64,000 bases of DNA, from the NCBI GenBank assembly GCA_036703985.1, contig DATNQN010000123.1, positions 62,816-126,815 of the forward strand, in the 5' to 3' direction. The DNA comes from Leptolyngbyaceae cyanobacterium. GTDB taxonomy: Bacteria; Cyanobacteriota; Cyanobacteriia; Cyanobacteriales; Aerosakkonemataceae. The notes beneath the pieces were generated by a model. That model was not told the origin of the DNA. It did no database searches and was given only the letters and a program-made list of their open reading frames with translations. Of this stretch, positions 1 through 54,370 are shown piece by piece (the stretch's first letter is position 1; each line of letters starts with the position of its first letter). Position numbers and translations under genes: made by a program.

Positions 1-304
1 AACCCTAAACTGTTGATTGGTTCCACAATCGCTTCATCCAGAAACGGTGACAAACCTTGCTGATACCAAGGTTTTTCTTCTTGTCCTTGCTGAAGTTGTT
101 GCCTTTCTTCCTCAGTCAACTCCTGCCAAGGAAAAATCACGAAATCTTTTGGCAGTTGATATTTTTTAATCCAAGGAATTTCCGGGATTCTTTCTGCTTC
201 TGCTTTAACTAAAATGAGCGAAACTTTCGGCGGTTTCCAACCTTGGCGTTGTAAGATTGGTTTTAATGCAAGTTGGGTGATTTCAGTCCAAGAGTGTAAG
301 GGCA
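1..304 (-). CDS. Partial hypothetical protein running off the window start (N-terminus at 304; MPLHSWTEITQLALKPILQRQGWKPP...)
   Basis: Open reading frame read by hand on the minus strand from ATG at 302-304 to position 1 without a stop. Not in the ORF track because it is edge-truncated. It overlaps the 3' end of the DUF29 gene in another frame. No recognisable domain. Confidence 0.3.
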
Positions 305-703
305 TTCTAGAGGAAAATTCACCTTATTTTGAGTTTTAATTTTCACAAATCCTAACGCATCTTGATAAATAGAATTTAATTCGCTAGCCAAATAGTTACG
401 AAGATTAGTAGTCAGCCTACGTCTCAATTGTACTCGAAAAGAATAGATTTCTCCCTGCCAGTGAACTGCGTTATACTCTAATTCACTTGTCCAATATTGC
501 AATAATAATAAATGACGGATTACCTGCTCTAAAAGGCTAGCCACTGCATTTTTCTTTTCTTGACCCAATTCTTCTAATTCCTCAATTAAATTCTCTAAAT
601 CCAGGGCGTTAAATTGCCGATTTTTAAGCAGTTTTATCGTTGACTCTAACCATTGAGAATCGTCTATTTCGTAAAGAGGTTTTAAATCAGTAACGCTCAT
701 CAT
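263..703 (-). CDS. DUF29 family protein (cyanobacteria-abundant small protein)
   Basis: Motifs LKPLYEIDDSQWLE...NRQFNALDLENLIEELEELGQ and C-terminal ECPYTL are typical of DUF29. The likely start is MMSVTDL at about 703, with a GAAAGGTG ribosome-binding site just upstream. The ORF-track start at 778 is probably too long. Confidence 0.7.
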   Translation of the reverse strand: MMSVTDLKPLYEIDDSQWLESTIKLLKNRQFNALDLENLIEELEELGQEKKNAVASLLEQVIRHLLLLQYWTSELEYNAVHWQGEIYSFRVQLRRRLTTNLRNYLASELNSIYQDALGFVKIKTQNKVNFPLECPYTLGLKSPNLH

Positions 704-780
704 CACCTTTCCCTTCAAGCTTGTGTTTGCTGTTCTAGCACAAACCTGTAAATTCGCTATTGGATAAAGAACGGGCATTG

Positions 781-860
781 AATAACTGATGCTACATTTA
801 TGGTAATCCCAAAGTGGCGAAAATGGGTCATGGCTTTTTCTATGATTTTATTAATATCGA
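781..860. repeat. ~75-bp dispersed repeat (second copy at 1905-1985) located upstream of the DUF29 and Uma2 gene starts
   Basis: gctacatttatggtaatcccaaagtggcgaaaatgggtcatggctttttctatgattt vs gctacattcatggtaatcccaaagcagcgaaaattcgtcacggttttttctatgattt (about 85% identity). Confidence 0.6.
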
Positions 861-1042
861 TTACTTAAATGTTTGCTACAGATGCTTGGGTTGGACGGGT
901 TTTGACTTTCATCTTAATTACTAGGAATTTCAATCTTTTGGCTTATGTGTCAAGGAAGAACTAGGTTAAATTTTATAACAGTAGTCAAAGTGCGATCGCT
1001 TTCTGATTCAAATTATTTGGGGTAAAGTGCGAGCGCTATCTA

Positions 1043-1726
1043 CTACTTCGCTAATTGTTGCACAAAATCTTGATGTGATTGACTTGCCAAACCTTGTTGC
1101 AAAACCTCTAAAACTTTAGCTAAATTTCCCGCTAATAAAGCCGCTTTATCTAACCACAATCCGGGGAAAATTTGCGAATAAATTATCCCATTGCTATCAG
1201 GTTCAAGTTTAATATATTCTCCGGCATTTAACCTAAACCAATCAAATTCACTATCTAAAACTCGCCAAACTAAATATTCTTGTACCCCATTCCGACGATA
1301 AACCTTTAGCTTTTGGTTAAAATCAATTGACACAGTACTGGCAGCAATTTCTACGATTAATTCTGGCGCACCTTCGACATAACCATCCTGACTAATAGTA
1401 GATTGTCCGCCTACGGCAATTCTTAGTAGTGCATCAGGTTGAGGTTCGTTATCCAAATCGAGCCTAACAGTACAATTATCTCCTAACTGTAGGTTGGGGG
1501 TAAAGGCTTTGTAGAAACTTAGCCATCCTATAATGTCAGCATGGGGTTCGCCATGTTGCGTAATTCTCAAGGCAGATGCCATATAAACTACTCCTTCGAT
1601 TAATTCTGCCTTTTTTAGATCGGGCATTGCATTATAGCGGCGTTCAAATTCTACACGGGTTAGTTGGTCGCCGTTTTCTAATGGTGGCAGAGTTGTAGTC
1701 GGAGAAAAGGTAGTAGAAGTAATCAT
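1043..1726 (-). CDS. Uma2 family endonuclease (DUF820, putative restriction-endonuclease-like)
   Basis: RVEFERRYNAMPDLKKAELIEGVVYMAS...PELIVEIAAS...YLVWRV is the characteristic Uma2 signature. Paralogs lie at 29820..30371 and 46187..46879. Confidence 0.8.
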   Translation of the reverse strand: MITSTTFSPTTTLPPLENGDQLTRVEFERRYNAMPDLKKAELIEGVVYMASALRITQHGEPHADIIGWLSFYKAFTPNLQLGDNCTVRLDLDNEPQPDALLRIAVGGQSTISQDGYVEGAPELIVEIAASTVSIDFNQKLKVYRRNGVQEYLVWRVLDSEFDWFRLNAGEYIKLEPDSNGIIYSQIFPGLWLDKAALLAGNLAKVLEVLQQGLASQSHQDFVQQLAK

Positions 1727-2323
1727 AGTTTTGGGGGAAGCGATATTGCCGCACTGCTACGCGATTGCACGAAGCGCAGCGCCAGAGGCGATCGCTAATC
1801 ATCCTAACAAATTGCTGATATTATGCGATCGGCTTTGGCTGAAAAGGATGTAATGAAATCGCATTTGCCCCCATAACAATCAACCATATCAAACAGGGCA
1901 TTAAATACCTTACGCTACATTCATGGTAATCCCAAAGCAGCGAAAATTCGTCACGGTTTTTTCTATGATTTCAGTAACTATGGCAGCTATTTTCGGGCAT
2001 CCGGCTTTCTTGAGACTGGGTAACAGCTTAGAGGAATGTGCTAGGAAGTACAAAGGTTTTTGCCAGAAGTATAAACCCAAGAGGAAGAACCCAAGCAAGT
2101 GCCATTGGGGTAGTAGGCTACTTGCTGGGTTCATCTCACAAACAATGGTTCAACCACCAACCCCAAAAAGTCGCAGTCCCATTTTGCCTCAAGCAAGTGC
2201 CAGGTAACGGAAAACTCCGAACTGACTCATGTTGTACGTCAATTCATCCAGGCGAATAGAGCGGTAAATGAGGTGGAAAAAGACTTTTGATATGAATTGA
2301 GGTGAGTGATAGAATTAGGCTAA

Positions 2324-2464
2324 TTACTCCGCGTCGTCGCCCGCAAAAGGAGGAAGTATAGCGGTTATAAATGATGCGCTTGCTCCTTTTTCTCCCGACA
2401 AAGTTGCATTAGTTTCTCGTTGCACAGGAGCAACTTGTTGGGGGCGTAAGTTTTTCTTAGTCAT
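2324..2464 (-). CDS. Cyanobactin-type precursor peptide (anacyclamide AcyE-like): MTKKNLRPQQVAPVQRETNATLSGEKGASASFITAILPPFAGDDAE
   Basis: Hand translation of the minus strand; the ORF is too short for the track. The N-terminal MTKKNLRPQQVAPVQRE and C-terminal FAGDDAE closely match my recollection of the Anabaena anacyclamide precursor AcyE (MTKKNIRPQQVAPVERE...FAGDDAE). The core ends in Pro-Pro, the usual requirement for PatG-type macrocyclisation. The gene is divergent from the PatA-like protease gene. Confidence 0.65.
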   Translation of the reverse strand: MTKKNLRPQQVAPVQRETNATLSGEKGASASFITAILPPFAGDDAE

Positions 2465-2915
2465 GGTTTTTCTTGACTCATAACTTGGGTTGAATTAATC
2501 ATTGGCTTGATTAATTTATTTGTCAAGGGGAGTCAGGTTAAGTTTGATAACAACTTATTACTTATTACCTAAAGGCTAACCCCAACGACTTGCTCAGGAA
2601 ATTGAGCGGGAGTGCGATCGCCACTTAGTCTATTCTTGACAACTTGAGTTAGTATAAACCCTGCAAAGAAACCCGATTAAATGTGTTTATCCTTGGCTTT
2701 AAGTCTTCCACCTGGGGTGATTCATCTGCCAAAAGAGAGATAATTGGACAATCATTGTAAAGCTTTATTTAAGAATAGGATAAAGGTGTCAAAAGACTCG
2801 ATCGAGGGGCATAAGTCAATCACCCAATGGTGAAGTTTTATAAATAAATTACAGAGTGACAGCCACTCATAGTAAAATCTTGAACTTAGATTGCCCAAGC
2901 ATTTTTAATTAATAA

Positions 2916-4895
2916 ATGCCTGACCCTAAACAAATTCCAGGAATACAACAACTATGGGCAGAAACTCAAGGCGACTCCACCATTTGCATTGCCGTCCTTG
3001 ATGGGGTAGTTGACCAAAATCACCCTTGTTTTACAGGGGCATCTTTAACGCGACTGCCTACTTTAGTAGCCGGGGAAGCTAGCACCGATGGTTCCATGTC
3101 CGCACACGGTACCCACGTTGCCAGTATTATTTTCGGTCAACCCGGTTCTCCCGTGCGGGGAATTGCACCCAAATGTCGCGGTTTAATCGTTCCCGTCTTT
3201 GCAGATGAAAGACTGAAGCTATCGCAACTCGACTTATCCCGCGCCATTGAACAAGCCATCAATGCCGGGGCGCACATCATTAATATAAGTGGCGGACAAC
3301 TCACCGACGAAGGAGAAGCAGAAGGCTGGCTAGAAAAAGCCGTGCGTCTGTGCAACGAACATAACGTTTTAATAGTTGCTGCTGCGGGAAACGATGGTTG
3401 CGAATGCTTGCACGTTCCCGCTGCCATACCAACTGTGCTAGCAGTCGGTGCAATGGACGAACACGGAAAACCCATCGACTTTAGCAACTGGGGAGAAACC
3501 TACCAAAGCCAAGGCATCCTCGCCCCGGGTGAAAACATTTTAGGAGCCAAACCCGGAGGCGGTACAATTCGGCTGAGTGGCACCAGCTTCGCCACTCCCA
3601 TTGTCAGCGGAGTTGCCGCCTTACTTCTGAGTATGCAATTGCAAAGGGGAGAAAAACCCAATCCCCAAAAAGTCAGGACAGCCTTGCTAAAGACCGCCAT
3701 TCCCTGTTCGCCAACTGATACCAACGATCCCCATCGCTGTTTAGTTGGCAAATTAAATATTCCTGGTGCTTTGCAATATCTGATAGGAGAAACCGTGTCA
3801 GAAGAATTAGAAACAGTTCTCGCCTCTGGTTGTGGCTGTGGCAGCCCCCAAACCAGTGATACCCTACCCAATAGCCAAATTCCAGAAGAAGTTTTGATAA
3901 TTGAGCCTGCCGAAGTTGTTGCTGCAACTCCCGCACCCATACCAACTTCTAATCCACCCGCATTTACTAATTCATCTACTCCCAGACAGATTACCATGTC
4001 AAATCGCGCCTCTAATTACGTTACTGCCAGCCAAGCACCCAGCGAACTCGCCGATGCCAACTTGGTTTACGCTTTGGGAACCCTTGGTTATGACTTCGGT
4101 ACAGAAGCAAGGCGCGACTCCTTCAAGCAACTGATGCCGGGAGCTACAATAGACAACACAGCGCTCCCCGCCAACCCCTACGATGCGCGGCAGATGGTGG
4201 ATTATTTAGCAGACACTCTTTCGGAAGCTAAAGCTTTAATTTGGACGCTCAACCTAGAATTAACCCCGATTTATGCCATTGAACCAGTAGGCGGTTTTGC
4301 TAGAGATGCCTATGCAGTATTGCAACAACTGCTCGCCGGACAAATCCAACCTGAAGATAACGCAGAATACGTCGAACGAGTCAGCATCCCTGGCGTTTTA
4401 CCTGGGCGCAGCGTCAAGCTATTCTCCGGCCAAGTCGTTCCCGTCATTGAACTTTACAACATTCGCGGACTCTACGGCTGGAAAGTCAACAACTTAGTTA
4501 ATGCCGCGATCAATACTGTACGAGCTACAGCCACAGACGCGCAAGAAGATGCCATCCGTCGCACTCTCAGCAGCTTCCTCAACCGTATTTATTATGACTT
4601 ACGCAATTTGGGCACTACGTCCCAAGATAGAGCGTTGAATTTTGCCGCTACTAATGCGTTCCAAGCGGCGACAACGATCGCCCAAGCAGTAGCAGAGGGA
4701 ATGGAATTAGATAGTATTACAGTAGATAAAAGTCCCTTCTGTCGCCCCGATAGCGATTGTTGGGATGTGAAACTAAAATTTTTCGATCCAGAAAATAGTC
4801 GCCGTGCTAAGAGAGTATACCGCTTTACTATAGATGTCAGCGATATCATTCCCGTTACCTTGGGCGAAGTACGTTCTTGGTCTACACCTAATTAA
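2916..4895 (+). CDS. patA: Cyanobactin maturation protease, PatA/AcyA family (N-terminal subtilisin S8 domain, Pro-rich linker, C-terminal PatA/PatG DUF)
   Basis: S8 catalytic residues are in context: D in AVLDGVVD, H in HGTHVASI, S in GTSFATP. A Pro-rich linker follows. The C-terminal domain (LVYALGTLGYDFGTEARRDSFKQLMP...) matches the conserved PatA/PatG C-terminal domain. The length of 659 aa is PatA-like, and no macrocyclase domain is present. Confidence 0.75.
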   Translation: MPDPKQIPGIQQLWAETQGDSTICIAVLDGVVDQNHPCFTGASLTRLPTLVAGEASTDGSMSAHGTHVASIIFGQPGSPVRGIAPKCRGLIVPVFADERLKLSQLDLSRAIEQAINAGAHIINISGGQLTDEGEAEGWLEKAVRLCNEHNVLIVAAAGNDGCECLHVPAAIPTVLAVGAMDEHGKPIDFSNWGETYQSQGILAPGENILGAKPGGGTIRLSGTSFATPIVSGVAALLLSMQLQRGEKPNPQKVRTALLKTAIPCSPTDTNDPHRCLVGKLNIPGALQYLIGETVSEELETVLASGCGCGSPQTSDTLPNSQIPEEVLIIEPAEVVAATPAPIPTSNPPAFTNSSTPRQITMSNRASNYVTASQAPSELADANLVYALGTLGYDFGTEARRDSFKQLMPGATIDNTALPANPYDARQMVDYLADTLSEAKALIWTLNLELTPIYAIEPVGGFARDAYAVLQQLLAGQIQPEDNAEYVERVSIPGVLPGRSVKLFSGQVVPVIELYNIRGLYGWKVNNLVNAAINTVRATATDAQEDAIRRTLSSFLNRIYYDLRNLGTTSQDRALNFAATNAFQAATTIAQAVAEGMELDSITVDKSPFCRPDSDCWDVKLKFFDPENSRRAKRVYRFTIDVSDIIPVTLGEVRSWSTPN

Positions 4896-5021
4896 TGCTT
4901 CTTTTTGAGTAGGTTGGGTTGTACTGAGCTTCACCCAAGATCGAGTTTCAATAAGTATTGAGTTTTACTTTTTTGAACCCAACCTACAGACTTGTATTTT
5001 GATTAACTTAGAGAGGAAAAA

Positions 5022-5216
5022 ATGAGATTACCCAACCTTTCTCCCCCCGTAAAAAGACCCGATATTATCTATCCTCATCAGGCAGTAGATGTCATTCACG
5101 GAACAGTAGAAGATTTAGTCCGCATTCGGATGGATTTATTGTACGGCGCGAACTTTAACGACCCAGCAGCATTTGCCTATAGAAGTTATCACCAACTTAA
5201 GTCTTCCGGCAGATGA
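5022..5216 (+). CDS. Small hypothetical protein; positionally analogous to the small PatB/PatC-type ORFs of cyanobactin clusters
   Basis: 64-aa ORF with a GAGAGGA ribosome-binding site 7 nt upstream. It sits 127 nt after the protease gene on the same strand. No domain recognised. Confidence 0.35.
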   Translation: MRLPNLSPPVKRPDIIYPHQAVDVIHGTVEDLVRIRMDLLYGANFNDPAAFAYRSYHQLKSSGR

Positions 5217-5269
5217 AATCTCTTATCTAAATCGAGAATAAATCTAAAATTGCCCGGTCAAAATAGAAG

Positions 5270-5515
5270 GTGGAGCAGTCACGCACTATGGCTAAAAGTT
5301 CAGAGAAAAAACAGCCCAAAGAAGCAGTTACAGAAGGGCAAGAAGCTCAGACAGAAAACGCCTCAAAGCCTGAAAACAAACTGGAAGATGCGAAGCAACA
5401 CTTGTTAGCCACCGGATTTAAAGACAATGGCTTTTGGTGGCAGGAAATGCTTAAAGAGCAAAAAGCTTCAGAAAAAGAACAGAAAACATTCCGCAGAGGT
5501 CGAATTTGGTCTTAG
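5270..5515 (+). CDS. Small hypothetical Lys/Glu-rich protein
   Basis: 81-aa ORF (GTG start at 5270, or ATG at 5288), same strand, in the gap between the protease gene and the vWA-like gene. Highly charged and low-complexity. Confidence 0.3.
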   Translation: MEQSRTMAKSSEKKQPKEAVTEGQEAQTENASKPENKLEDAKQHLLATGFKDNGFWWQEMLKEQKASEKEQKTFRRGRIWS

Positions 5516-5572
5516 CAAATCAGTTAGATTTTTGAGAAAGTAAAAAAAAACATATTCAGAGAATAAAAAATA

Positions 5573-7222
5573 ATGGCTGCAACCGCTCGATCTGCAAAAG
5601 AAGCTACCAAAGTCGATTTAGTAATTGTCATTGACACCAGCCCCTCAATGAAAGACAAAATTGACATTCTTAACCACGCTACAGAATCTGCTATAAAAAA
5701 AGCTAGTTTAAGCTGTCCGTGCGATTTGCGAATTGAGTGGTTCGGCATTGAGGGAACTTGGGAAAATACTAATTTCCAGCAGACTTTGCGAGAATACCTA
5801 ATTAATAATTGCGGAGTCGATGAAACAAAAATCCGAGGTCGCAAGCGCGGCGAAGTTCCTGGAAACGGCGCACAAGAGGACGGAGCTAGAGCTATAGAAG
5901 ATATTTCAACTTATTTTAATTGGCGATCGGGTGCAACCCGTGCCATTTTTTATTTAGGTGACGAAGCTTTAGAAGGTGGCGACAATACCGAGCAAGAGGA
6001 TATCGAGGCAGCTAATCGCGCCATTGAAACAGCCAGAAGTGCCGGAGTCGTCGTCCATACTTATTTTGGAACACCTAAAAGCAAAGGAGAAGAAAAAACG
6101 GCGGCTGAGTACGTCCGCCTAGCACAAGAGACGGGCGGACACGGTTTTAGGAATCAAAATGCGATTGGTGGTTTTGCTGAGATTCTGAAAACGGTTATTT
6201 GCTCGACTAGAAATAGAGATACTACCCCTCAACTCGTTCCCGTCATCCCTGTTTACTTCGTACAGGCGCAGCATTTGGTTGGTTATTCAGGGACTAGCAC
6301 CCAGTCAAGCCAGAGTTCTACTCCTCAAAATAAGTCGGTTGACTTGGTGATAGTCATCGATACCAGCGTTTCTATGAAAGACGAAGCAGAAGGTTTGAGC
6401 AATGCTGCAGAAGCTGCTATAAAAAAGGCTAGTTCAAGCTGTCCGAGCGATTTGCGAGTTGAGTGGTTTGGACTCGAAGGAACTTGGAAAAACACCAATT
6501 TCCAGCAAACTTTGCGGGACTATCTAATTAATAATTGCGGAGTCGCTGAATCAGAAATCCGAGGTCGCAAGCGGGGAGAAGTTCCTGGTGGCGGAGCGCA
6601 AGAGGATGGAGCTAGAGCTATTGAAGATATCTCGACACACTTTAATTGGCGAGAGGGTGCATCCCGTGCGATCTTTTATTTAAGTGACGAAGCTCTTGAA
6701 GGTGGTGACGATACCGAACAAGAGGATATCGAAGCAGCTAATCGCGCCATTGAAAAAGCTAAAAGTGCTGGAGCGATCGTCCATACTTATTTTGGCACAT
6801 CTAAGAGCAAGGGACGAGACAAAACAGCGGCTGAGTTCGCCCGTGTAGCACGAGAAACAGGTGGACAGGCTTTTACTGACAAAGATGCTTTGGGAGGATT
6901 CGCGGAAATCCTCACCCAAATTATTTGTGCTTCTAGCGAAGCAAAAGTAGAGGAAACGGGACAGTTGATTCCTGTGGTGCCATTATATTTCGCCGCGATC
7001 GCAGGTGGAGCACTTGTCGCCCAATCAACGCAGATGTCAACTGTTAAATCTGCAGTTCCAACTACTGCACTAGCTAGCACTGGAGGATTATTTTCTTTAA
7101 CAGCAGCTAATTTGGTCGCTGCTCCTCAAAGTAGTATCTCAACGACAGCAATGAATATGCCAATCTATATGATGGCAGTCCAACCGACGAATGGGGAAAG
7201 CGATCGAGGGACTTCGGTGTAA
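5573..7222 (+). CDS. Tandem-duplicated vWA-like (MIDAS DxSxS) protein with a C-terminal hydrophobic tail
   Basis: Two repeats of about 240 aa with about 75% identity, each starting DLVIVIDTS(P/V)SMKD (a DxSxS MIDAS-like motif). The C-terminal 90 aa are hydrophobic, Ala/Thr/Ser-rich. The gene is co-directional and tightly spaced after the protease and the small ORFs, so an operon is likely. Confidence 0.5.
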   Translation: MAATARSAKEATKVDLVIVIDTSPSMKDKIDILNHATESAIKKASLSCPCDLRIEWFGIEGTWENTNFQQTLREYLINNCGVDETKIRGRKRGEVPGNGAQEDGARAIEDISTYFNWRSGATRAIFYLGDEALEGGDNTEQEDIEAANRAIETARSAGVVVHTYFGTPKSKGEEKTAAEYVRLAQETGGHGFRNQNAIGGFAEILKTVICSTRNRDTTPQLVPVIPVYFVQAQHLVGYSGTSTQSSQSSTPQNKSVDLVIVIDTSVSMKDEAEGLSNAAEAAIKKASSSCPSDLRVEWFGLEGTWKNTNFQQTLRDYLINNCGVAESEIRGRKRGEVPGGGAQEDGARAIEDISTHFNWREGASRAIFYLSDEALEGGDDTEQEDIEAANRAIEKAKSAGAIVHTYFGTSKSKGRDKTAAEFARVARETGGQAFTDKDALGGFAEILTQIICASSEAKVEETGQLIPVVPLYFAAIAGGALVAQSTQMSTVKSAVPTTALASTGGLFSLTAANLVAAPQSSISTTAMNMPIYMMAVQPTNGESDRGTSV

Positions 7223-7382
7223 GGGGTTTCTGTTTTTCGTAATCTGCCTTGAGCAACGCCTAACGGCATAAAGCCACGAATCACAGCACGCTAATTACGG
7301 AAGAACCGAAATTTCTACATCACGAATAGGATAACTAACTATTCTCCTTGTACAGCAACTATAGCGATCCTATTTAAATAAA

Positions 7383-7430
7383 TAACCCCTCCCAACCCTC
7401 CCCTTGGTAAGGGGAGGGCTAGGGTGGGGT
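7383..7430. terminator. Bidirectional hairpin (CCCTCCCC-ttggtaa-GGGGAGGG) between the convergent vWA-like gene and glmS
   Basis: A GC-rich perfect inverted repeat followed by T-rich sequence on both strands, located between two convergent gene ends. Confidence 0.5.
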
Positions 7431-7479: not shown

Positions 7480-9381
7480 CTATTCAACAGTTACCGATTT
7501 CGCCAAATTACGAGGCTGATCGACATCTAAACCGCGACGGGCGGCAATGTGATAAGCTAACAATTGCAAAGGAATTACCGTCACAATTGGCGAAAGAATT
7601 TCATCTACTATCGGCACTGGCAAAATATTATTAAAAATTTCGGCTGCCTCACCTTCTTTCATCGGCGTTACGCCAATCAAACTGGAATCTCGTGCTTTAG
7701 CTTCCTGTGCGTTGGAGAGAACTTTCTCAAAGTTAACGCCTCCCGGCATAGCGATCGCAACTACTGGTACTTTAGCATCTAATAATGCGATCGGCCCGTG
7801 CTTCATTTCCCCAGCCGGATAACCCTCCGCATGAATATAGCTTATTTCCTTCAGTTTGAGCGCTCCTTCCAAAGCAATCGGATAATTAATTCCCCGCCCG
7901 ATAAAGATAAAATCTTGCGTATCGCTAAAGCCGTGAGCCAACTCTTCGATATACCGTTCCTGGCTTTCTAAAATTAACTCAATCTCCGAAGGAAGTATCC
8001 GCAAACCTTCTAAAATCTTTGACAAAGATTCGACAGGTAAAGTTTTCCGGCGATAAGCCAACTCCAGCGCCAAACAATAAAAAGCCACCAACTGCGCCAT
8101 AAAAGTTTTAGTCGCCGCTACCCCAATTTCGATTCCCGCATGAGTATCGATAATATGAGATACTAACTGACTCAAAGAACTTTCCGGGCGATTAGAAATT
8201 CCCAGTAATCGCGGTTTAAACTTTTCTGGTAAACCGATGCGGCGCTCTTTTTCCATTGCCAACGCAGCCAAAGTATCAGCCGTTTCCCCCGACTGAGTAA
8301 CGCCAATCGTTAAAGTATTGGGTATCAGTGGTGGTGGTGCATAGCGAAACTCAGAAGCATACTGTACCGTCGTGGGAATTCCCGCTAATTGTTCCAGCAA
8401 ATATTTACCAACTAAACTAGCGTGCCAACTAGTGCCACAAGCAACAATTTGAATGTGTTCTAAATCTTCTAAAAGTTGATTTGGTATGCCTAATTTAATG
8501 GGAATTGAACCGTTAGATGCTTTCCAATCACTATTTATATATGCTTCTAAACAACTCCGCACTACTCCCGGTTGCTCGTAAATTTCTTTGAGCATAAAAT
8601 GCCGGAAGCCTTGCTTCTCTACTAAAATCGGGTTCCAGTTCAGGGTGCGAGGGGTTTTTTTGAGCCTTTCCCCGGCAAAATTATAAACCTCCACACCCAG
8701 TGGCGTCAGACGTGCCATTTCTCCGTTTTCCAGAGTTAGTACGGTGCGGGTATAAGGTACTAGTGCTGGGGTATCGGAAGCACAGAAAAATTCTCCCGAA
8801 CCGAAGCCGATCGACAAAGGAGCCTGTTGTCTGGCTACAATCAATTCATCGGGATAATCCGCACAAAGTACCGCTATGGCAAATGCTCCCTCCAATCTAT
8901 TCACCGCCTGCTGCACCGCCTCTAAAAAAAGTGAGGGAGAGAGAGAAAGAGAGGAAGAAGGGGAAACAGCCAAAAATTCACCAATTAAGTGGGGAATCAC
9001 TTCCGTATCGGTATCCGAACGAAATTTATGTCCTCTAGCTTTCAGTTCTTCCCGCAATTCCCGATAGTTTTCAATAATGCCATTCTGTACCACCGCCACC
9101 CGCATCGCCGTATCCATATGGGGATGCGCGTTGTACTCTTCCGGTTTGCCGTGAGTAGCCCACCGGGTATGTCCAATCCCTATCTGGGCTGGGTTTTCAT
9201 CACCAGCTAGTTTGTCTCGCAAGTTCTGAAGTTTACCTTTAGCTCTAACACAGTGAATTTCTCCTTCTCTCACCGTGGCGACGCCAGCAGAATCATAACC
9301 GCGATATTCTAGTTTTTCTAATCCCGCCAACAAAATTTCGCTAGCTGCTTGGGTGCCGATATAGCCAACGATTCCGCACAT
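7480..9381 (-). CDS. glmS: Glutamine--fructose-6-phosphate aminotransferase (isomerising)
   Basis: MCGIVGY N-terminal Ntn-type amidotransferase motif, two SIS domains and the C-terminal ...LAKSVTVE. It carries an in-frame low-complexity insertion (SPSSSLSLSPSLF) encoded by an AG-rich simple repeat at about 8930-8980. Confidence 0.9.
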   Translation of the reverse strand: MCGIVGYIGTQAASEILLAGLEKLEYRGYDSAGVATVREGEIHCVRAKGKLQNLRDKLAGDENPAQIGIGHTRWATHGKPEEYNAHPHMDTAMRVAVVQNGIIENYRELREELKARGHKFRSDTDTEVIPHLIGEFLAVSPSSSLSLSPSLFLEAVQQAVNRLEGAFAIAVLCADYPDELIVARQQAPLSIGFGSGEFFCASDTPALVPYTRTVLTLENGEMARLTPLGVEVYNFAGERLKKTPRTLNWNPILVEKQGFRHFMLKEIYEQPGVVRSCLEAYINSDWKASNGSIPIKLGIPNQLLEDLEHIQIVACGTSWHASLVGKYLLEQLAGIPTTVQYASEFRYAPPPLIPNTLTIGVTQSGETADTLAALAMEKERRIGLPEKFKPRLLGISNRPESSLSQLVSHIIDTHAGIEIGVAATKTFMAQLVAFYCLALELAYRRKTLPVESLSKILEGLRILPSEIELILESQERYIEELAHGFSDTQDFIFIGRGINYPIALEGALKLKEISYIHAEGYPAGEMKHGPIALLDAKVPVVAIAMPGGVNFEKVLSNAQEAKARDSSLIGVTPMKEGEAAEIFNNILPVPIVDEILSPIVTVIPLQLLAYHIAARRGLDVDQPRNLAKSVTVE

Positions 9382-53155: not shown

Positions 53156-54370
53156 CTACCGACACTTCTCTAACGAGTAAGTGTCGGCTTCTAACTTCAC
53201 AGCCCGTTGCCCCTTTCCTTTACAGGTATTCGGTCTTACACAGGCTCCATTAGCAGGAACGGGGTTCCCTCCGTCCATATTTAATATCCGAATGCCTTCA
53301 GTTCTGATGTTTGATGCTGCATTACCATCTCTGTCGTGATGAGTGCCACAGTTCTGGCAATCCCACTCCCGGATATCGAGTGGCAATTCATCAACAATAT
53401 GGTCGCAACATGAACACTTTTTAGAACTGGGAAAAAATCGGTCAATTTCTATCAACTTACCTTCTTTACGCTCTAGTTTATAAGCCAGGAAATTAACAAA
53501 CATCCCCCAACCAACATCGGATATTGTTTTTGATAGCTTTCGGTTTCTTATCATCCCTTTAACGTTGAGATTCTCTACAACGATGACTTGGCTTTCGTCT
53601 ACCAATTTTCGGCTGAGTTTATGCAAATAATCTTGGCGGGTATTTGATACTTTTTCGTGAACCTTGGCTACAAATTTTCTGTGTCTTTCCCTAGTTTTAC
53701 TTCCCTTAGTTTTACGAGCAAGCTTCTGTTGTTTCTTCCTCAAGTTCTTTTCATGACGTTTCAAATGTTTAGGATTAGAATACTTGGTCACTTGTTCGCC
53801 GTCATGAACAATAGCAAAATCCTTCAATCCCAAATCAATACCTAGCGTCTTGTCTCCAGAACTCTCCTGAGTAGAGTCTTCTGTCTGGCACAGGATAGAA
53901 GCAAAATACTTATCTGATGAAGTCTTAGTGATTGTTACCGTCTTGATTGTCCCAATAATGTCACGGTGAAATACAGCTTTGAGTTCACCAATTTTGGGAA
54001 CAACAAGTTTATCACCTTTAACGGTGACGTTCTGGGGATATTGGATTGACTGTAACCCGTGTTTAGACTTGAATCGAGGAAACTTGGCTCTACCCTGAAA
54101 AAAGTTTGTATAAGCCTTATTAAGATTTATTGCTACGCACTGTAATACAGCAGAGTAGCAATCTTCTTTCAACCAAGGAAATTCTTTCTTGAGTTGAGGC
54201 AACATCCCTTTATAAGTTGCCATCTTTAAAGTTTTACCTGTTTCCTGGTAGTGCTGAATACAGGCGTTCAAGGCGTGATTCCAATACCAACGCGCACAAC
54301 CAAATGACTTCGATAAAGCCAACTGTTGTTCTGGGTTTGGATAGAGTCTTACCTTGACCGCTTTTAGCAC
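53156..54370 (-). CDS. tnpB: IS200/IS605-family TnpB (OrfB; RuvC-like RNA-guided nuclease with C-terminal zinc ribbon)
   Basis: N-terminal MLKAVKVRLYPNPEQQLALSKSFGCARWYWNHAL (OrfB_IS605 HTH). RuvC motifs (LGIDLGLKDFA; ...VVENLNVKGM). Zinc finger CSCCDHIVDELPLDIREWDCQNCGTHHDRDGNAASNI. No adjacent tnpA. Confidence 0.9.
   Translation of the reverse strand: MLKAVKVRLYPNPEQQLALSKSFGCARWYWNHALNACIQHYQETGKTLKMATYKGMLPQLKKEFPWLKEDCYSAVLQCVAINLNKAYTNFFQGRAKFPRFKSKHGLQSIQYPQNVTVKGDKLVVPKIGELKAVFHRDIIGTIKTVTITKTSSDKYFASILCQTEDSTQESSGDKTLGIDLGLKDFAIVHDGEQVTKYSNPKHLKRHEKNLRKKQQKLARKTKGSKTRERHRKFVAKVHEKVSNTRQDYLHKLSRKLVDESQVIVVENLNVKGMIRNRKLSKTISDVGWGMFVNFLAYKLERKEGKLIEIDRFFPSSKKCSCCDHIVDELPLDIREWDCQNCGTHHDRDGNAASNIRTEGIRILNMDGGNPVPANGACVRPNTCKGKGQRAVKLEADTYSLEKCR

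What the first reader, a model, noticed from the sequence alone, without database searches (positions are those of the whole stretch)
2324..4895. Unannotated anacyclamide-type cyanobactin precursor gene divergent from a PatA-type protease, in a locus lacking PatD/F/G
A 46-codon minus-strand ORF at 2324..2464 encodes MTKKNLRPQQVAPVQRETNATLSGEKGASASFITAILPPFAGDDAE. It is below the ORF-track cutoff. Its first 17 residues and its last 7 (FAGDDAE) match, from memory, the leader and C-terminal recognition sequences of Anabaena anacyclamide precursors (AcyE: MTKKNIRPQQVAPVERE...FAGDDAE). The predicted core ends in Pro-Pro, as required for PatG-type macrocyclisation. The divergent neighbour is a 659-aa PatA/AcyA-type protease (subtilisin plus C-terminal PatA/PatG DUF). 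The leader is unusually short (about 28 aa) and lacks the LAELSEEAL recognition helix used by heterocyclases. That is consistent with the absence of a PatD heterocyclase gene. There is also no PatG macrocyclase or PatF gene anywhere in these 64 kb. This is therefore either a split cluster, a remnant, or a minimal linear or externally cyclised RiPP system. Immediately 5' of the precursor start (2465-2481) lies a degenerate 16-nt duplicate of its first codons (atgagtcaagaaaaac vs atgactaagaaaaac), which suggests past tandem precursor duplication.
Basis: partly seen in the sequence, partly recalled or inferred. Interest (0 to 1): 0.85.

Follow-up and report, generated by a model that had tools for sequence, protein, structure and literature searches.

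The report
Cyanobactin cluster cut by window edge
The small ORF is a genuine, already annotated precursor of a cyclic cyanobactin peptide, and its "missing" macrocyclase gene lies about 1.2 kb beyond the left edge of the window, so this is an ordinary anacyclamide-type gene cluster rather than a minimal or orphan system.

Summary
The 46-codon ORF at 2324..2464(-) exists and scores above the curated cutoff of the anacyclamide/piricyclamide precursor family. The divergent 659-aa gene is a PatA/PagA-type N-terminal cyanobactin protease.

Most of the interpretation does not hold.
- The precursor is already annotated in GenBank as HEY9853189.1.
- PatB (5022..5216) and PatC (5288..5515) follow the protease and were missed.
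- Public contigs 100% identical to the window continue past base 1. They carry two more precursor genes and then a PatG-type macrocyclase gene with the capping insertion and no oxidase domain, starting about 1,232 bp left of the window.

The locus is therefore a bidirectional C-B-A | E1…E2-E3-G cluster of the known acy/sph/pag type, cut by the window edge. Lacking PatD is normal for this type.

A PatF prenyltransferase does seem to be absent between A and G, probably by deletion. The products would then be unprenylated macrocycles, for E1 cyclo(SFITAILPP), [M+H]+ 940.55.

The "16-nt duplicate" is a conserved A-rich 5' leader, not a duplication relic.

The C-terminal half of G in this organism could not be recovered, so an inactive cluster is not excluded. 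This is a new member of a known kind, of low interest.

The parts
2324..2464 (-). Precursor gene E1 (46 aa). Leader MTKKNLRPQQVAPVQRETNATLS, putative N-terminal recognition sequence GEKGASA, predicted core SFITAILPP, C-terminal recognition sequence FAGDDAE.
   Evidence: TIGR04446 64.1 bits (cutoff 35) and DUF5840 62.6 bits. Paralogue and orthologue alignments show conserved flanks around a hypervariable core. GenBank HEY9853189.1.
2465..2915 (.). Divergent intergenic region between E1 and the A protease. It holds the A-rich 5' leader of E1, including the claimed 16-nt 'duplicate' at 2465-2481, and a promoter-like TTGACA-17-AATGAT on the minus strand (2526..2498).
   Evidence: The promoter scan is not above the shuffle expectation (3 found, 2.1 expected). 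A TTGACA box and the A-rich leader recur upstream of other precursor copies.
2916..4895 (+). A-type (PatA/PagA/AcyA-like) N-terminal cyanobactin protease, 659 aa: subtilisin domain plus C-terminal PatG_D/PatG_C (DUF) domain.
   Evidence: TIGR03895 959 bits. Pfam S8, PatG_D and PatG_C. PDB PagA 4H6W 517 bits and PatA 4H6V 438 bits, aligned without the macrocyclase insertion, versus PatG macrocyclase 4AKS 216 bits; the DUF domain matches 4UVQ at 334 bits.
5022..5216 (+). PatB/AcyB/McaB family gene (64 aa).
   Evidence: TIGR04220 132.4 bits, cutoff 55.
5288..5515 (+). PatC/TenC/TruC family gene (75 aa).
   Evidence: TIGR04447 52.7 bits, cutoff 30.
1895..2287 (+). Remnant of a RAYT/Y1-transposase-like gene (aa 115-253 of 253; catalytic domain missing), convergent with E1.
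   Evidence: tblastn with the L007 protein, 59% identity, E 1e-43. The intact gene matches Pfam Y1_Tnp at 68 bits. The same gene sits next to precursors in 44 fetched loci. A 'transposase between sphE and sphF' is reported in the active sph cluster (PMC6162287).
1043..1726 (-). Uma2-family gene (227 aa) inside the cluster, on the same strand as the precursors and G.
   Evidence: Pfam Uma2 93 bits. A Uma2 gene lies at the equivalent place in the characterised sph cluster (ORF6, PMC6162287) and in L005, L008 and L095.
263..778 (-). DUF29 gene (171 aa) inside the cluster.
   Evidence: Pfam DUF29 131.6 bits. Same arrangement in L005.
1..305 (-). 5' part of a truncated GNAT-like gene (196 aa, equal to aa 112-301 of the 301-aa two-domain protein of L007), cut by the window edge. 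To its left, outside the window, lie E2 (about -637..-476), E3 (about -888..-712) and the G macrocyclase gene (starts about -1232), all on the minus strand.
   Evidence: L001 and L086 are 100% identical to the window and extend it. GNAT: tblastn 90.5% identity and Pfam Acetyltransf_1. E2 and E3: TIGR04446 42.5 and 68.6 bits. G: PDB 4H6X 348 bits.

Best explanation
The ORF is precursor gene E1 of a bidirectional anacyclamide/sphaerocyclamide/prenylagaramide-type cyanobactin cluster that the left edge of the window cuts in two.

Layout:
- Right arm (+ strand, inside the window): A protease, PatB, PatC.
- Left arm (- strand): E1, a RAYT-like remnant on the opposite strand, Uma2, DUF29 and a truncated GNAT-like gene inside the window. 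Beyond base 1 come two more precursors (E2, E3) and an oxidase-less PatG-type macrocyclase gene.

Mechanism, inferred from the established biochemistry of the family: the A protease removes the leader after ...GEKGASA. The G macrocyclase recognises the Pro-FAGDDAE junction, removes FAGDDAE and joins the ends, giving a head-to-tail cyclic peptide made only of proteinogenic residues. For E1 that is cyclo(SFITAILPP), monoisotopic mass 939.543.

There are no heterocycles, because there is no D gene and no oxidase domain. There is probably no prenylation either, because no F gene lies between A and G.

Shown here: gene identities, gene order and the cassette-like hypervariable core. Inferred: the cleavage sites, activity and products.
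For: - Family scores above curated cutoffs for E1, A, B, C, E2 and E3.
- A is closest to PagA and PatA, not to the PatG macrocyclase domain.
- L001 equals window 1..7412 at 100% and adds 1,139 bp on the left, with E2 and E3.
- L086 and L087, from two other sequencing runs, are 100% identical to window 1..1236 and 1..1217. They run on into a gene of >=382 aa that matches the PatG macrocyclase best (4H6X 348 bits, 4AKS 343 bits, PagA 280 bits). It has the roughly 60-residue capping insertion, aligned Asp/His/Ser, and no oxidase domain before the protease start.
- L005 to L009 (91-98% identical A protease) all have a G gene on the opposite strand 6-8 kb from A. L005's G is 97.5% identical to the source fragment and is an open frame for 575 aa.
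- Orthologue alignment shows a near-invariant leader, FAGDDAE and flanks around an unalignable core.
- Aligning the leader with AcyE, whose core is the known TSQIWGSPVP (PMC2854353), places the core start after GEKGASA.
- The architecture C-B-A | E, transposase, (F), Uma2, hypothetical, ..., G matches the heterologously expressed sph cluster (PMC6162287).
Against: - The C-terminal half of G in this exact organism was not recovered. The identical contigs stop in a GC-rich repeat inside the linker after the catalytic domain.
- In relatives G is sometimes broken: by an IS66 insertion in L094, and split into 603 + 113 aa in L095.
- The locus shows decay: a truncated GNAT-like gene and a RAYT remnant.
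- No F gene was found.
- No expression or chemical data exist.
- The continuation comes from other assemblies of the same sequence, not from the window itself.
Confidence: 0.8

Rival explanations
1. The cluster is present but decaying or inactive. G is disrupted beyond its catalytic domain, or the cluster is otherwise silent, so E1 is an intact but unprocessed relic, as in the inactive mae cluster of Microcystis NIES-843.
For: - The identical contigs end in a repeat-like GC-rich element in the G linker, where the sequence diverges from L005 and L007.
- Related G genes are interrupted by IS66 (L094) or split into two frames (L095, L123-L126).
- The GNAT-like gene is truncated, the RAYT gene is reduced to a remnant and F is missing.
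- L005 carries clearly degenerate precursor copies.
- There is published precedent for frameshift-inactivated clusters (PMC4663559, PMC3428304).
Against: - A, B, C and E1-E3 are all intact and score well.
- The G catalytic domain (382 aa) is an open frame with its triad.
- The 97.5%-identical G of L005 reads through the linker into the C-terminal domain.
- The linker is naturally variable, and the contig break is what a multi-copy repeat would cause in a short-read assembly.
Confidence: 0.17
2. One reading: a split cluster, remnant or minimal system that has only a PatA-type protease and makes a linear or externally cyclised peptide.
For: No PatG, PatF or PatD gene was found anywhere in the 64-kb window.
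Against: - A macrocyclase gene lies about 1.2 kb left of base 1 in contigs identical to the window.
- PatB and PatC are present.
- Two more precursors lie between E1 and G.
- All close relatives share the same A...G layout.
Confidence: 0.03

Closest known systems
Sphaerocyclamide (sph) and anacyclamide (acy) clusters of Sphaerospermopsis and Anabaena (PMC6162287, PMC2854353)
   Same: - Bidirectional C-B-A | E...G layout.
- No heterocyclase, and G without an oxidase domain.
- One core per precursor, ending in Pro followed by FAGDDAE.
- Leader beginning MTKKN(I/L)RPQQVAPV.
- A transposase-like gene next to E, and a Uma2 gene inside the cluster.
   Different: - Three precursor genes instead of one.
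- No F prenyltransferase between E and G. Together with the N-terminal half of the transposase-like gene, it appears to have been deleted.
- DUF29 and a truncated GNAT-like gene in place of the hypothetical and XisI genes.
- The host is an uncultured filamentous cyanobacterium whose nearest cluster relatives are Microcoleus and Kamptonema.
Prenylagaramide (pag), piricyclamide (pir) and monchicamide (mon) clusters (PMC4663559, PMC11774001)
   Same: - Several precursor genes per cluster, each with one hypervariable core.
- The A catalytic domain is most similar to PagA (517 bits).
- A known core ending in Pro-Pro (MonE2, YMLSGAPP).
- E3 has two Cys, like the disulfide-bridged piricyclamides.
   Different: Those clusters carry an active F prenyltransferase and yield prenylated or geranylated products. 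Here no F was found.
Patellamide (pat) cluster of Prochloron
   Same: A, B, C, E and G homologues, with the same two-protease logic: N-terminal cleavage, then C-terminal cleavage coupled to macrocyclisation.
   Different: - No PatD and no oxidase domain.
- No heterocyclase recognition helix in the leader.
- A single core per precursor.
- Genes on both strands.

Membership tests
Anacyclamide/piricyclamide-type cyanobactin precursor (TIGR04446 / DUF5840) | Full-length match to the family profile above the curated cutoff | tested here: met
   64.1 bits against a cutoff of 35, residues 1-46 on profile positions 1-51. Pfam DUF5840 62.6 bits against 25.
Anacyclamide/piricyclamide-type cyanobactin precursor (TIGR04446 / DUF5840) | Core ending in Pro directly before a conserved C-terminal recognition sequence, with a hypervariable core between conserved flanks | tested here: met
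   ...ILPP|FAGDDAE. In alignments with orthologues and paralogues the leader and FAGDDAE are conserved and the core cannot be aligned.
Cyanobactin biosynthetic gene cluster (acy/sph/pag type) | N-terminal protease A: subtilisin domain without the macrocyclase insertion, plus a C-terminal DUF domain | tested here: met
   TIGR03895 959 bits. PagA 517 bits and PatA 438 bits aligned without the insertion, versus PatG macrocyclase 216 bits. DUF domain matches 4UVQ at 334 bits.
Cyanobactin biosynthetic gene cluster (acy/sph/pag type) | C-terminal protease/macrocyclase G with the capping-helix insertion | tested here: met
   G is not in the window. It lies in contigs L086 and L087, which are 100% identical to window 1..1236, and starts about 1,232 bp left of base 1. 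It scores 348 and 343 bits on the PatG macrocyclase structures with the insertion aligned. Only the first 382 aa were seen; the C-terminal domain in this organism was not recovered.
Cyanobactin biosynthetic gene cluster (acy/sph/pag type) | PatB and PatC family genes | tested here: met
   TIGR04220 132.4 bits (cutoff 55) and TIGR04447 52.7 bits (cutoff 30) for the ORFs at 5022..5216 and 5288..5515.
Cyanobactin biosynthetic gene cluster (acy/sph/pag type) | No D heterocyclase, and G without an oxidase domain (this separates the type from the pat/ten/mca types) | tested here: met
   No YcaO/PatD-like ORF between G and A or elsewhere in the window. G starts directly with the protease domain, MPDLITIPG.... 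The relatives L006 and L009 do have D and an oxidase.
Cyanobactin biosynthetic gene cluster (acy/sph/pag type) | F prenyltransferase (LynF/TruF/PatF family). It is usual in this type but is not needed for cyclisation. | tested here: not met
   tblastn with three F proteins (one verified as TIGR04445, 271 bits) found nothing in the window, L001, L005, L086 or L095, although it hit about 40 other loci. The region beyond G in the source organism was not seen.
Cyanobactin biosynthetic gene cluster (acy/sph/pag type) | Production of the predicted macrocyclic peptide | not testable with these tools
   This needs LC-MS or heterologous expression. Predicted [M+H]+ 940.5502 for cyclo(SFITAILPP).

The most novel reading that the evidence does not exclude
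The RAYT/Y1-transposase-like gene is as well conserved as the A and G proteases (64-87% identity across genera). In 44 fetched loci it sits near a cyanobactin precursor gene, usually directly convergent with it. It may therefore be a domesticated cluster component that drives duplication, exchange or diversification of precursor cassettes, rather than a passing insertion sequence. On this reading, the window's F-less, three-precursor locus with a truncated copy would be a snapshot of that process.
Probability: 0.12. Interest if true: 0.6.

Novelty: new member of a known kind. Interest (0 to 1): 0.2.

Why it matters
It matters little beyond bookkeeping.
- The locus adds three new predicted core sequences (SFITAILPP, a core around VGVGASLWVHAVP, and a two-Cys core ending ...CDKTEDRYFCYQTP) from an uncultured filamentous cyanobacterium to a well-studied RiPP family.
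- It may be a natural prenyltransferase-less variant of the acy/sph architecture.
- The main lesson is methodological. Saying a gene is absent "from the locus" means little when the feature lies 2-3 kb from a window edge.
- The recurrent transposase-like gene beside the precursors is the only lead that might repay further work.

Tried and rejected
- Rest of G in the same organism: four attempts failed. The metagenome scan with the G fragment gave a best hit of only 84-88% identity. A protein search with the G fragment gave a best cluster of 92% identity with no exact member. A protein search with the G-type C-terminal domain was followed by lookups of the closest cluster members. All of those came from other samples.
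- Why the contigs break inside G: I first supposed the break came from sequence shared with the A gene. No shared k-mers of >=17 nt were found. The break lies in a GC-rich repeat-like element that has no copy in the window.
- PatF: no trace in the window or in the extension.
- Promoter and terminator scan of 1700..3000: not above the shuffle expectation.
- Rfam and tRNA scans of the whole window: nothing found.
- The 16-nt 'duplicate' as a relic of tandem duplication: rejected. The stretch is homologous to the 5' leader of the L007 and L008 orthologues (ctgaattcaaggtaaaatc, no ATG). A-rich leaders of the form ...ggaaaaaacacc precede most family members. Tandem precursor duplication is nevertheless real in this lineage.
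- The 549-aa gene after PatC as a cluster member: there is no evidence beyond synteny. It has only sub-threshold VWA hits.
Full report
**Observation.** The minus-strand ORF at 2324..2464 is there and translates exactly as reported.
- It matches NCBIfam TIGR04446 (anacyclamide/piricyclamide family) over its whole length at 64.1 bits, against a curated cutoff of 35. It matches Pfam DUF5840 at 62.6 bits. This is far beyond chance for a 46-aa ORF.
- The divergent gene at 2916..4895 encodes 659 aa and scores 959 bits on TIGR03895, the PatA/PatG family, with S8, PatG_D and PatG_C domains.
- Against solved structures its catalytic domain is closest to the N-terminal proteases PagA (4H6W, 517 bits) and PatA (4H6V, 438 bits), aligned without gaps. 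It matches the PatG macrocyclase domain at only 216 bits. Its C-terminal 280 residues match the PatG DUF domain (4UVQ).

**What else is in the window.**
- Two small ORFs just downstream of A are PatB (5022..5216, TIGR04220, 132 bits) and PatC (5288..5515, TIGR04447, 52.7 bits).
- The other ORFs of >=100 aa that I scanned are housekeeping or unrelated genes: glmS, aspS, smc, metK, a PcrA/UvrD helicase, an amidohydrolase, a TnpB and others. None is a PatD, PatF or PatG homologue. tblastn with three PatF proteins also found nothing in the window.
- So the statement 'no D, F or G in these 64 kb' is correct.

**The window edge.** Exact-sequence lookups of the window's own proteins returned public short-read contigs.
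- L001 (8,551 bp) is 100% identical to window 1..7412 and extends 1,139 bp further left. That extension holds the rest of a GNAT-like ORF and two more precursor genes on the same strand as E1:
  - E2, 53 aa, MKKRNLKPTQAAPVERPQAGSTSRGPLAMFAAAVGVGASLWVHAVPFADDDAE
  - E3, 58 aa, MRKKNIRPQQVAPVQREITATSWAGKKGVVPLFGFTHCDKTEDRYFCYQTPFVGDDAE
  - Both pass the TIGR04446 cutoff.
- L086 and L087 come from two other sequencing runs. They are 100% identical to window 1..1236 and 1..1217 and to L001, and they continue another 1.2 kb. After E3 they enter a gene of at least 382 aa. This gene matches the PatG macrocyclase domain best (4H6X 348 bits, 4AKS 343 bits, PagA 280 bits). It carries the macrocyclase-specific insertion between the catalytic Asp and His, has aligned Asp/His/Ser, and begins directly with the protease domain, so it has no oxidase domain.
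- In window coordinates this G gene starts at about -1232, on the minus strand.
- The five closest genomes (A protease 91-98% identical; Microcoleus, Kamptonema and two MAGs) all have a second, G-type protease on the opposite strand 6-8 kb from A. The G of L005 is 97.5% identical to the source fragment and is an open frame for its whole 575 visible residues.
- The 'missing macrocyclase' is therefore an artefact of where the window begins.

**Architecture.**
- Going left from the 451-bp divergent intergenic region: E1; a C-terminal remnant of a RAYT/Y1-transposase-like gene on the opposite strand (1895..2287); Uma2 (1043..1726); DUF29 (263..778); a GNAT-like gene truncated to its C-terminal 190 residues (305 to about -285); E2; E3; G. 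Going right: A, B, C.
- This is the bidirectional layout published for the anacyclamide cluster, which lacks D and whose G lacks an oxidase domain (PMC2854353, PMC4663559).
- It is almost gene for gene the layout of the heterologously expressed sphaerocyclamide cluster: SphC, B, A | SphE, putative transposase, SphF, Uma2 endonuclease, hypothetical, XisI, SphG (PMC6162287).
- Multi-precursor versions are known from the pag cluster (seven E genes), from pir, and from mon in a Microcoleaceae strain (five E genes) (PMC4663559, PMC11774001).

**Prenyltransferase.**
- In L007 and L008 a verified LynF/TruF/PatF gene (TIGR04445, 271 bits) lies between G and the transposase-like gene. Most other relatives also have F.
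- In the source and in L005 there is no F and no remnant of one. The transposase-like gene has lost its N-terminal 114 residues, and Uma2 follows about 170 bp further on. The simplest reading, which is an inference, is a shared deletion that removed F and the 5' half of the neighbouring gene.
- In related clusters where the far side of G is visible (L008, L095, L123), unrelated genes follow G. An F beyond G in the source is therefore unlikely, but it is not excluded.

**Predicted products.**
- Precursors from the fetched loci fall into leader types. E1's type is conserved up to ...GEKGASA, then becomes unalignable, then resumes at P-FAGDDAE.
- Aligned with AcyE, whose product anacyclamide A10 is TSQIWGSPVP (PMC2854353), the leader/core boundary falls after GEKGASA. 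This gives the core SFITAILPP.
- By the established mechanism, A cuts before the core, and G cuts after the terminal Pro and cyclises. The product would be cyclo(SFITAILPP), monoisotopic 939.5429, [M+H]+ 940.5502.
- A single C-terminal Pro is what the family conserves (PMC2854353, PMC4663559). Pro-Pro is not required, though it occurs in MonE2 (PMC11774001).
- E3 has two Cys, like the disulfide-bridged piricyclamides (PMC4663559).
- The cleavage sites and products are inferred, not shown.

**The 16-nt 'duplicate'.**
- The similarity exists (atgagtcaagaaaaac against atgactaagaaaaac).
- However, an A-rich stretch directly before the ATG is common to most precursor genes of the family, for example ...ggaaaaaacacc ATG and ...caaggtaaaatc ATG.
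- In the closest orthologues the homologous stretch reads ctgaattcaaggtaaaatc, with no ATG, and in L005 the A-run is one base shorter.
- It is a conserved 5' leader that happens to resemble the Lys-Lys-Asn codons.
- Real precursor duplication is abundant in this lineage. L005 has about ten copies or remnants, each with a duplicated 3' flank derived from the end of the transposase-like gene.

[quoted passage not shown] They sit on a 162,260-bp contig of a MAG labelled Leptolyngbyaceae cyanobacterium. The finding is thus 'unannotated' only with respect to the first stage's ORF track.

**Open points.**
- I could not recover the C-terminal half of G for this organism.
- The identical contigs end in a GC-rich, repeat-like element within the variable linker after the catalytic domain.
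- Related G genes are sometimes broken.
- I therefore keep a decayed, inactive cluster as a rival at about 0.17.

**Verdict.**
- The 'minimal, split or remnant system lacking PatG' interpretation is refuted as a window-edge artefact.
- The locus is a new member of the known acy/sph/pag type of cyanobactin cluster. It probably lacks the prenyltransferase and encodes three new cores. Interest is low.

Noticed in passing
window 30660..33341 (+): An 893-aa ORF matches the eukaryotic Major Vault Protein domains along its length: Vault 221 bits, MVP_shoulder 176 bits, plus Vault_2, Vault_3 and Vault_4. This is a near-full-length MVP homologue in a cyanobacterial chromosome.
   Followed up: no
window 1895..2287 (+); L007 4701..5462 and 7813..8577; 44 fetched loci in all: A 253-aa Y1/REP-associated-transposase-like gene is conserved at 64-87% protein identity across Microcoleus, Nostoc, Planktothrix, Dolichospermum, Pseudanabaena and metagenomes. 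In most of these loci it lies directly convergent with a cyanobactin precursor gene. The sph paper lists it only as a 'putative transposase' (PMC6162287). A preprint reports a comparable link between TnpA_REP and lanthipeptide genes in picocyanobacteria (10.1101/2020.03.09.984088; title and abstract only).
   Followed up: partly
window 1..305 (-) and left of the window; L007 6909..7814 (-); L005 3882..4820 (-): A two-domain GNAT acetyltransferase-like gene lies among the precursor genes, but only in the source, L005 and L007. It is full length (301 aa) in L007, split in L005, and truncated to the C-terminal 190 aa in the source. It may be a lineage-specific tailoring gene, and here it is defunct.
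   Followed up: partly
L006 and L009 compared with window 2916..7222: The A-B-C genes and the following 549-aa gene are conserved at 87-89% nucleotide identity in Microcoleus asticus and Kamptonema UHCC 0994. In those genomes the other arm encodes a heterocyclase (PatD), an oxidase-containing G, and LAELSEEAL-type precursors. The arm carrying the precursor and tailoring genes seems to have been exchanged next to a conserved A-B-C arm.
   Followed up: partly
window 5573..7222 (+): The 549-aa ORF after PatC contains an internal duplication. Window positions about 5612..6149 and 6347..6912 cross-match at about 80-82% in relatives. It has only sub-threshold VWA-domain hits. It is syntenic with A-B-C in L006-L009, and its function is unknown.
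   Followed up: no
window 53156..54370 (-): An IS200/IS605-family TnpB RNA-guided endonuclease gene: NF040570 348 bits, against a cutoff of 100.
   Followed up: no
L086 about 3560..3616 (about 2.3 kb left of the window): A GC-rich, partly palindromic element (GGGGTATGACCCCTCCCCAACCCCTCCCCTAAGAGGAGAGGGGC) lies in frame in the linker of the G gene, just where the L086 and L087 contigs from two sequencing runs end (L087 a few bases inside it). No copy is present in the 64-kb window.
   Followed up: partly
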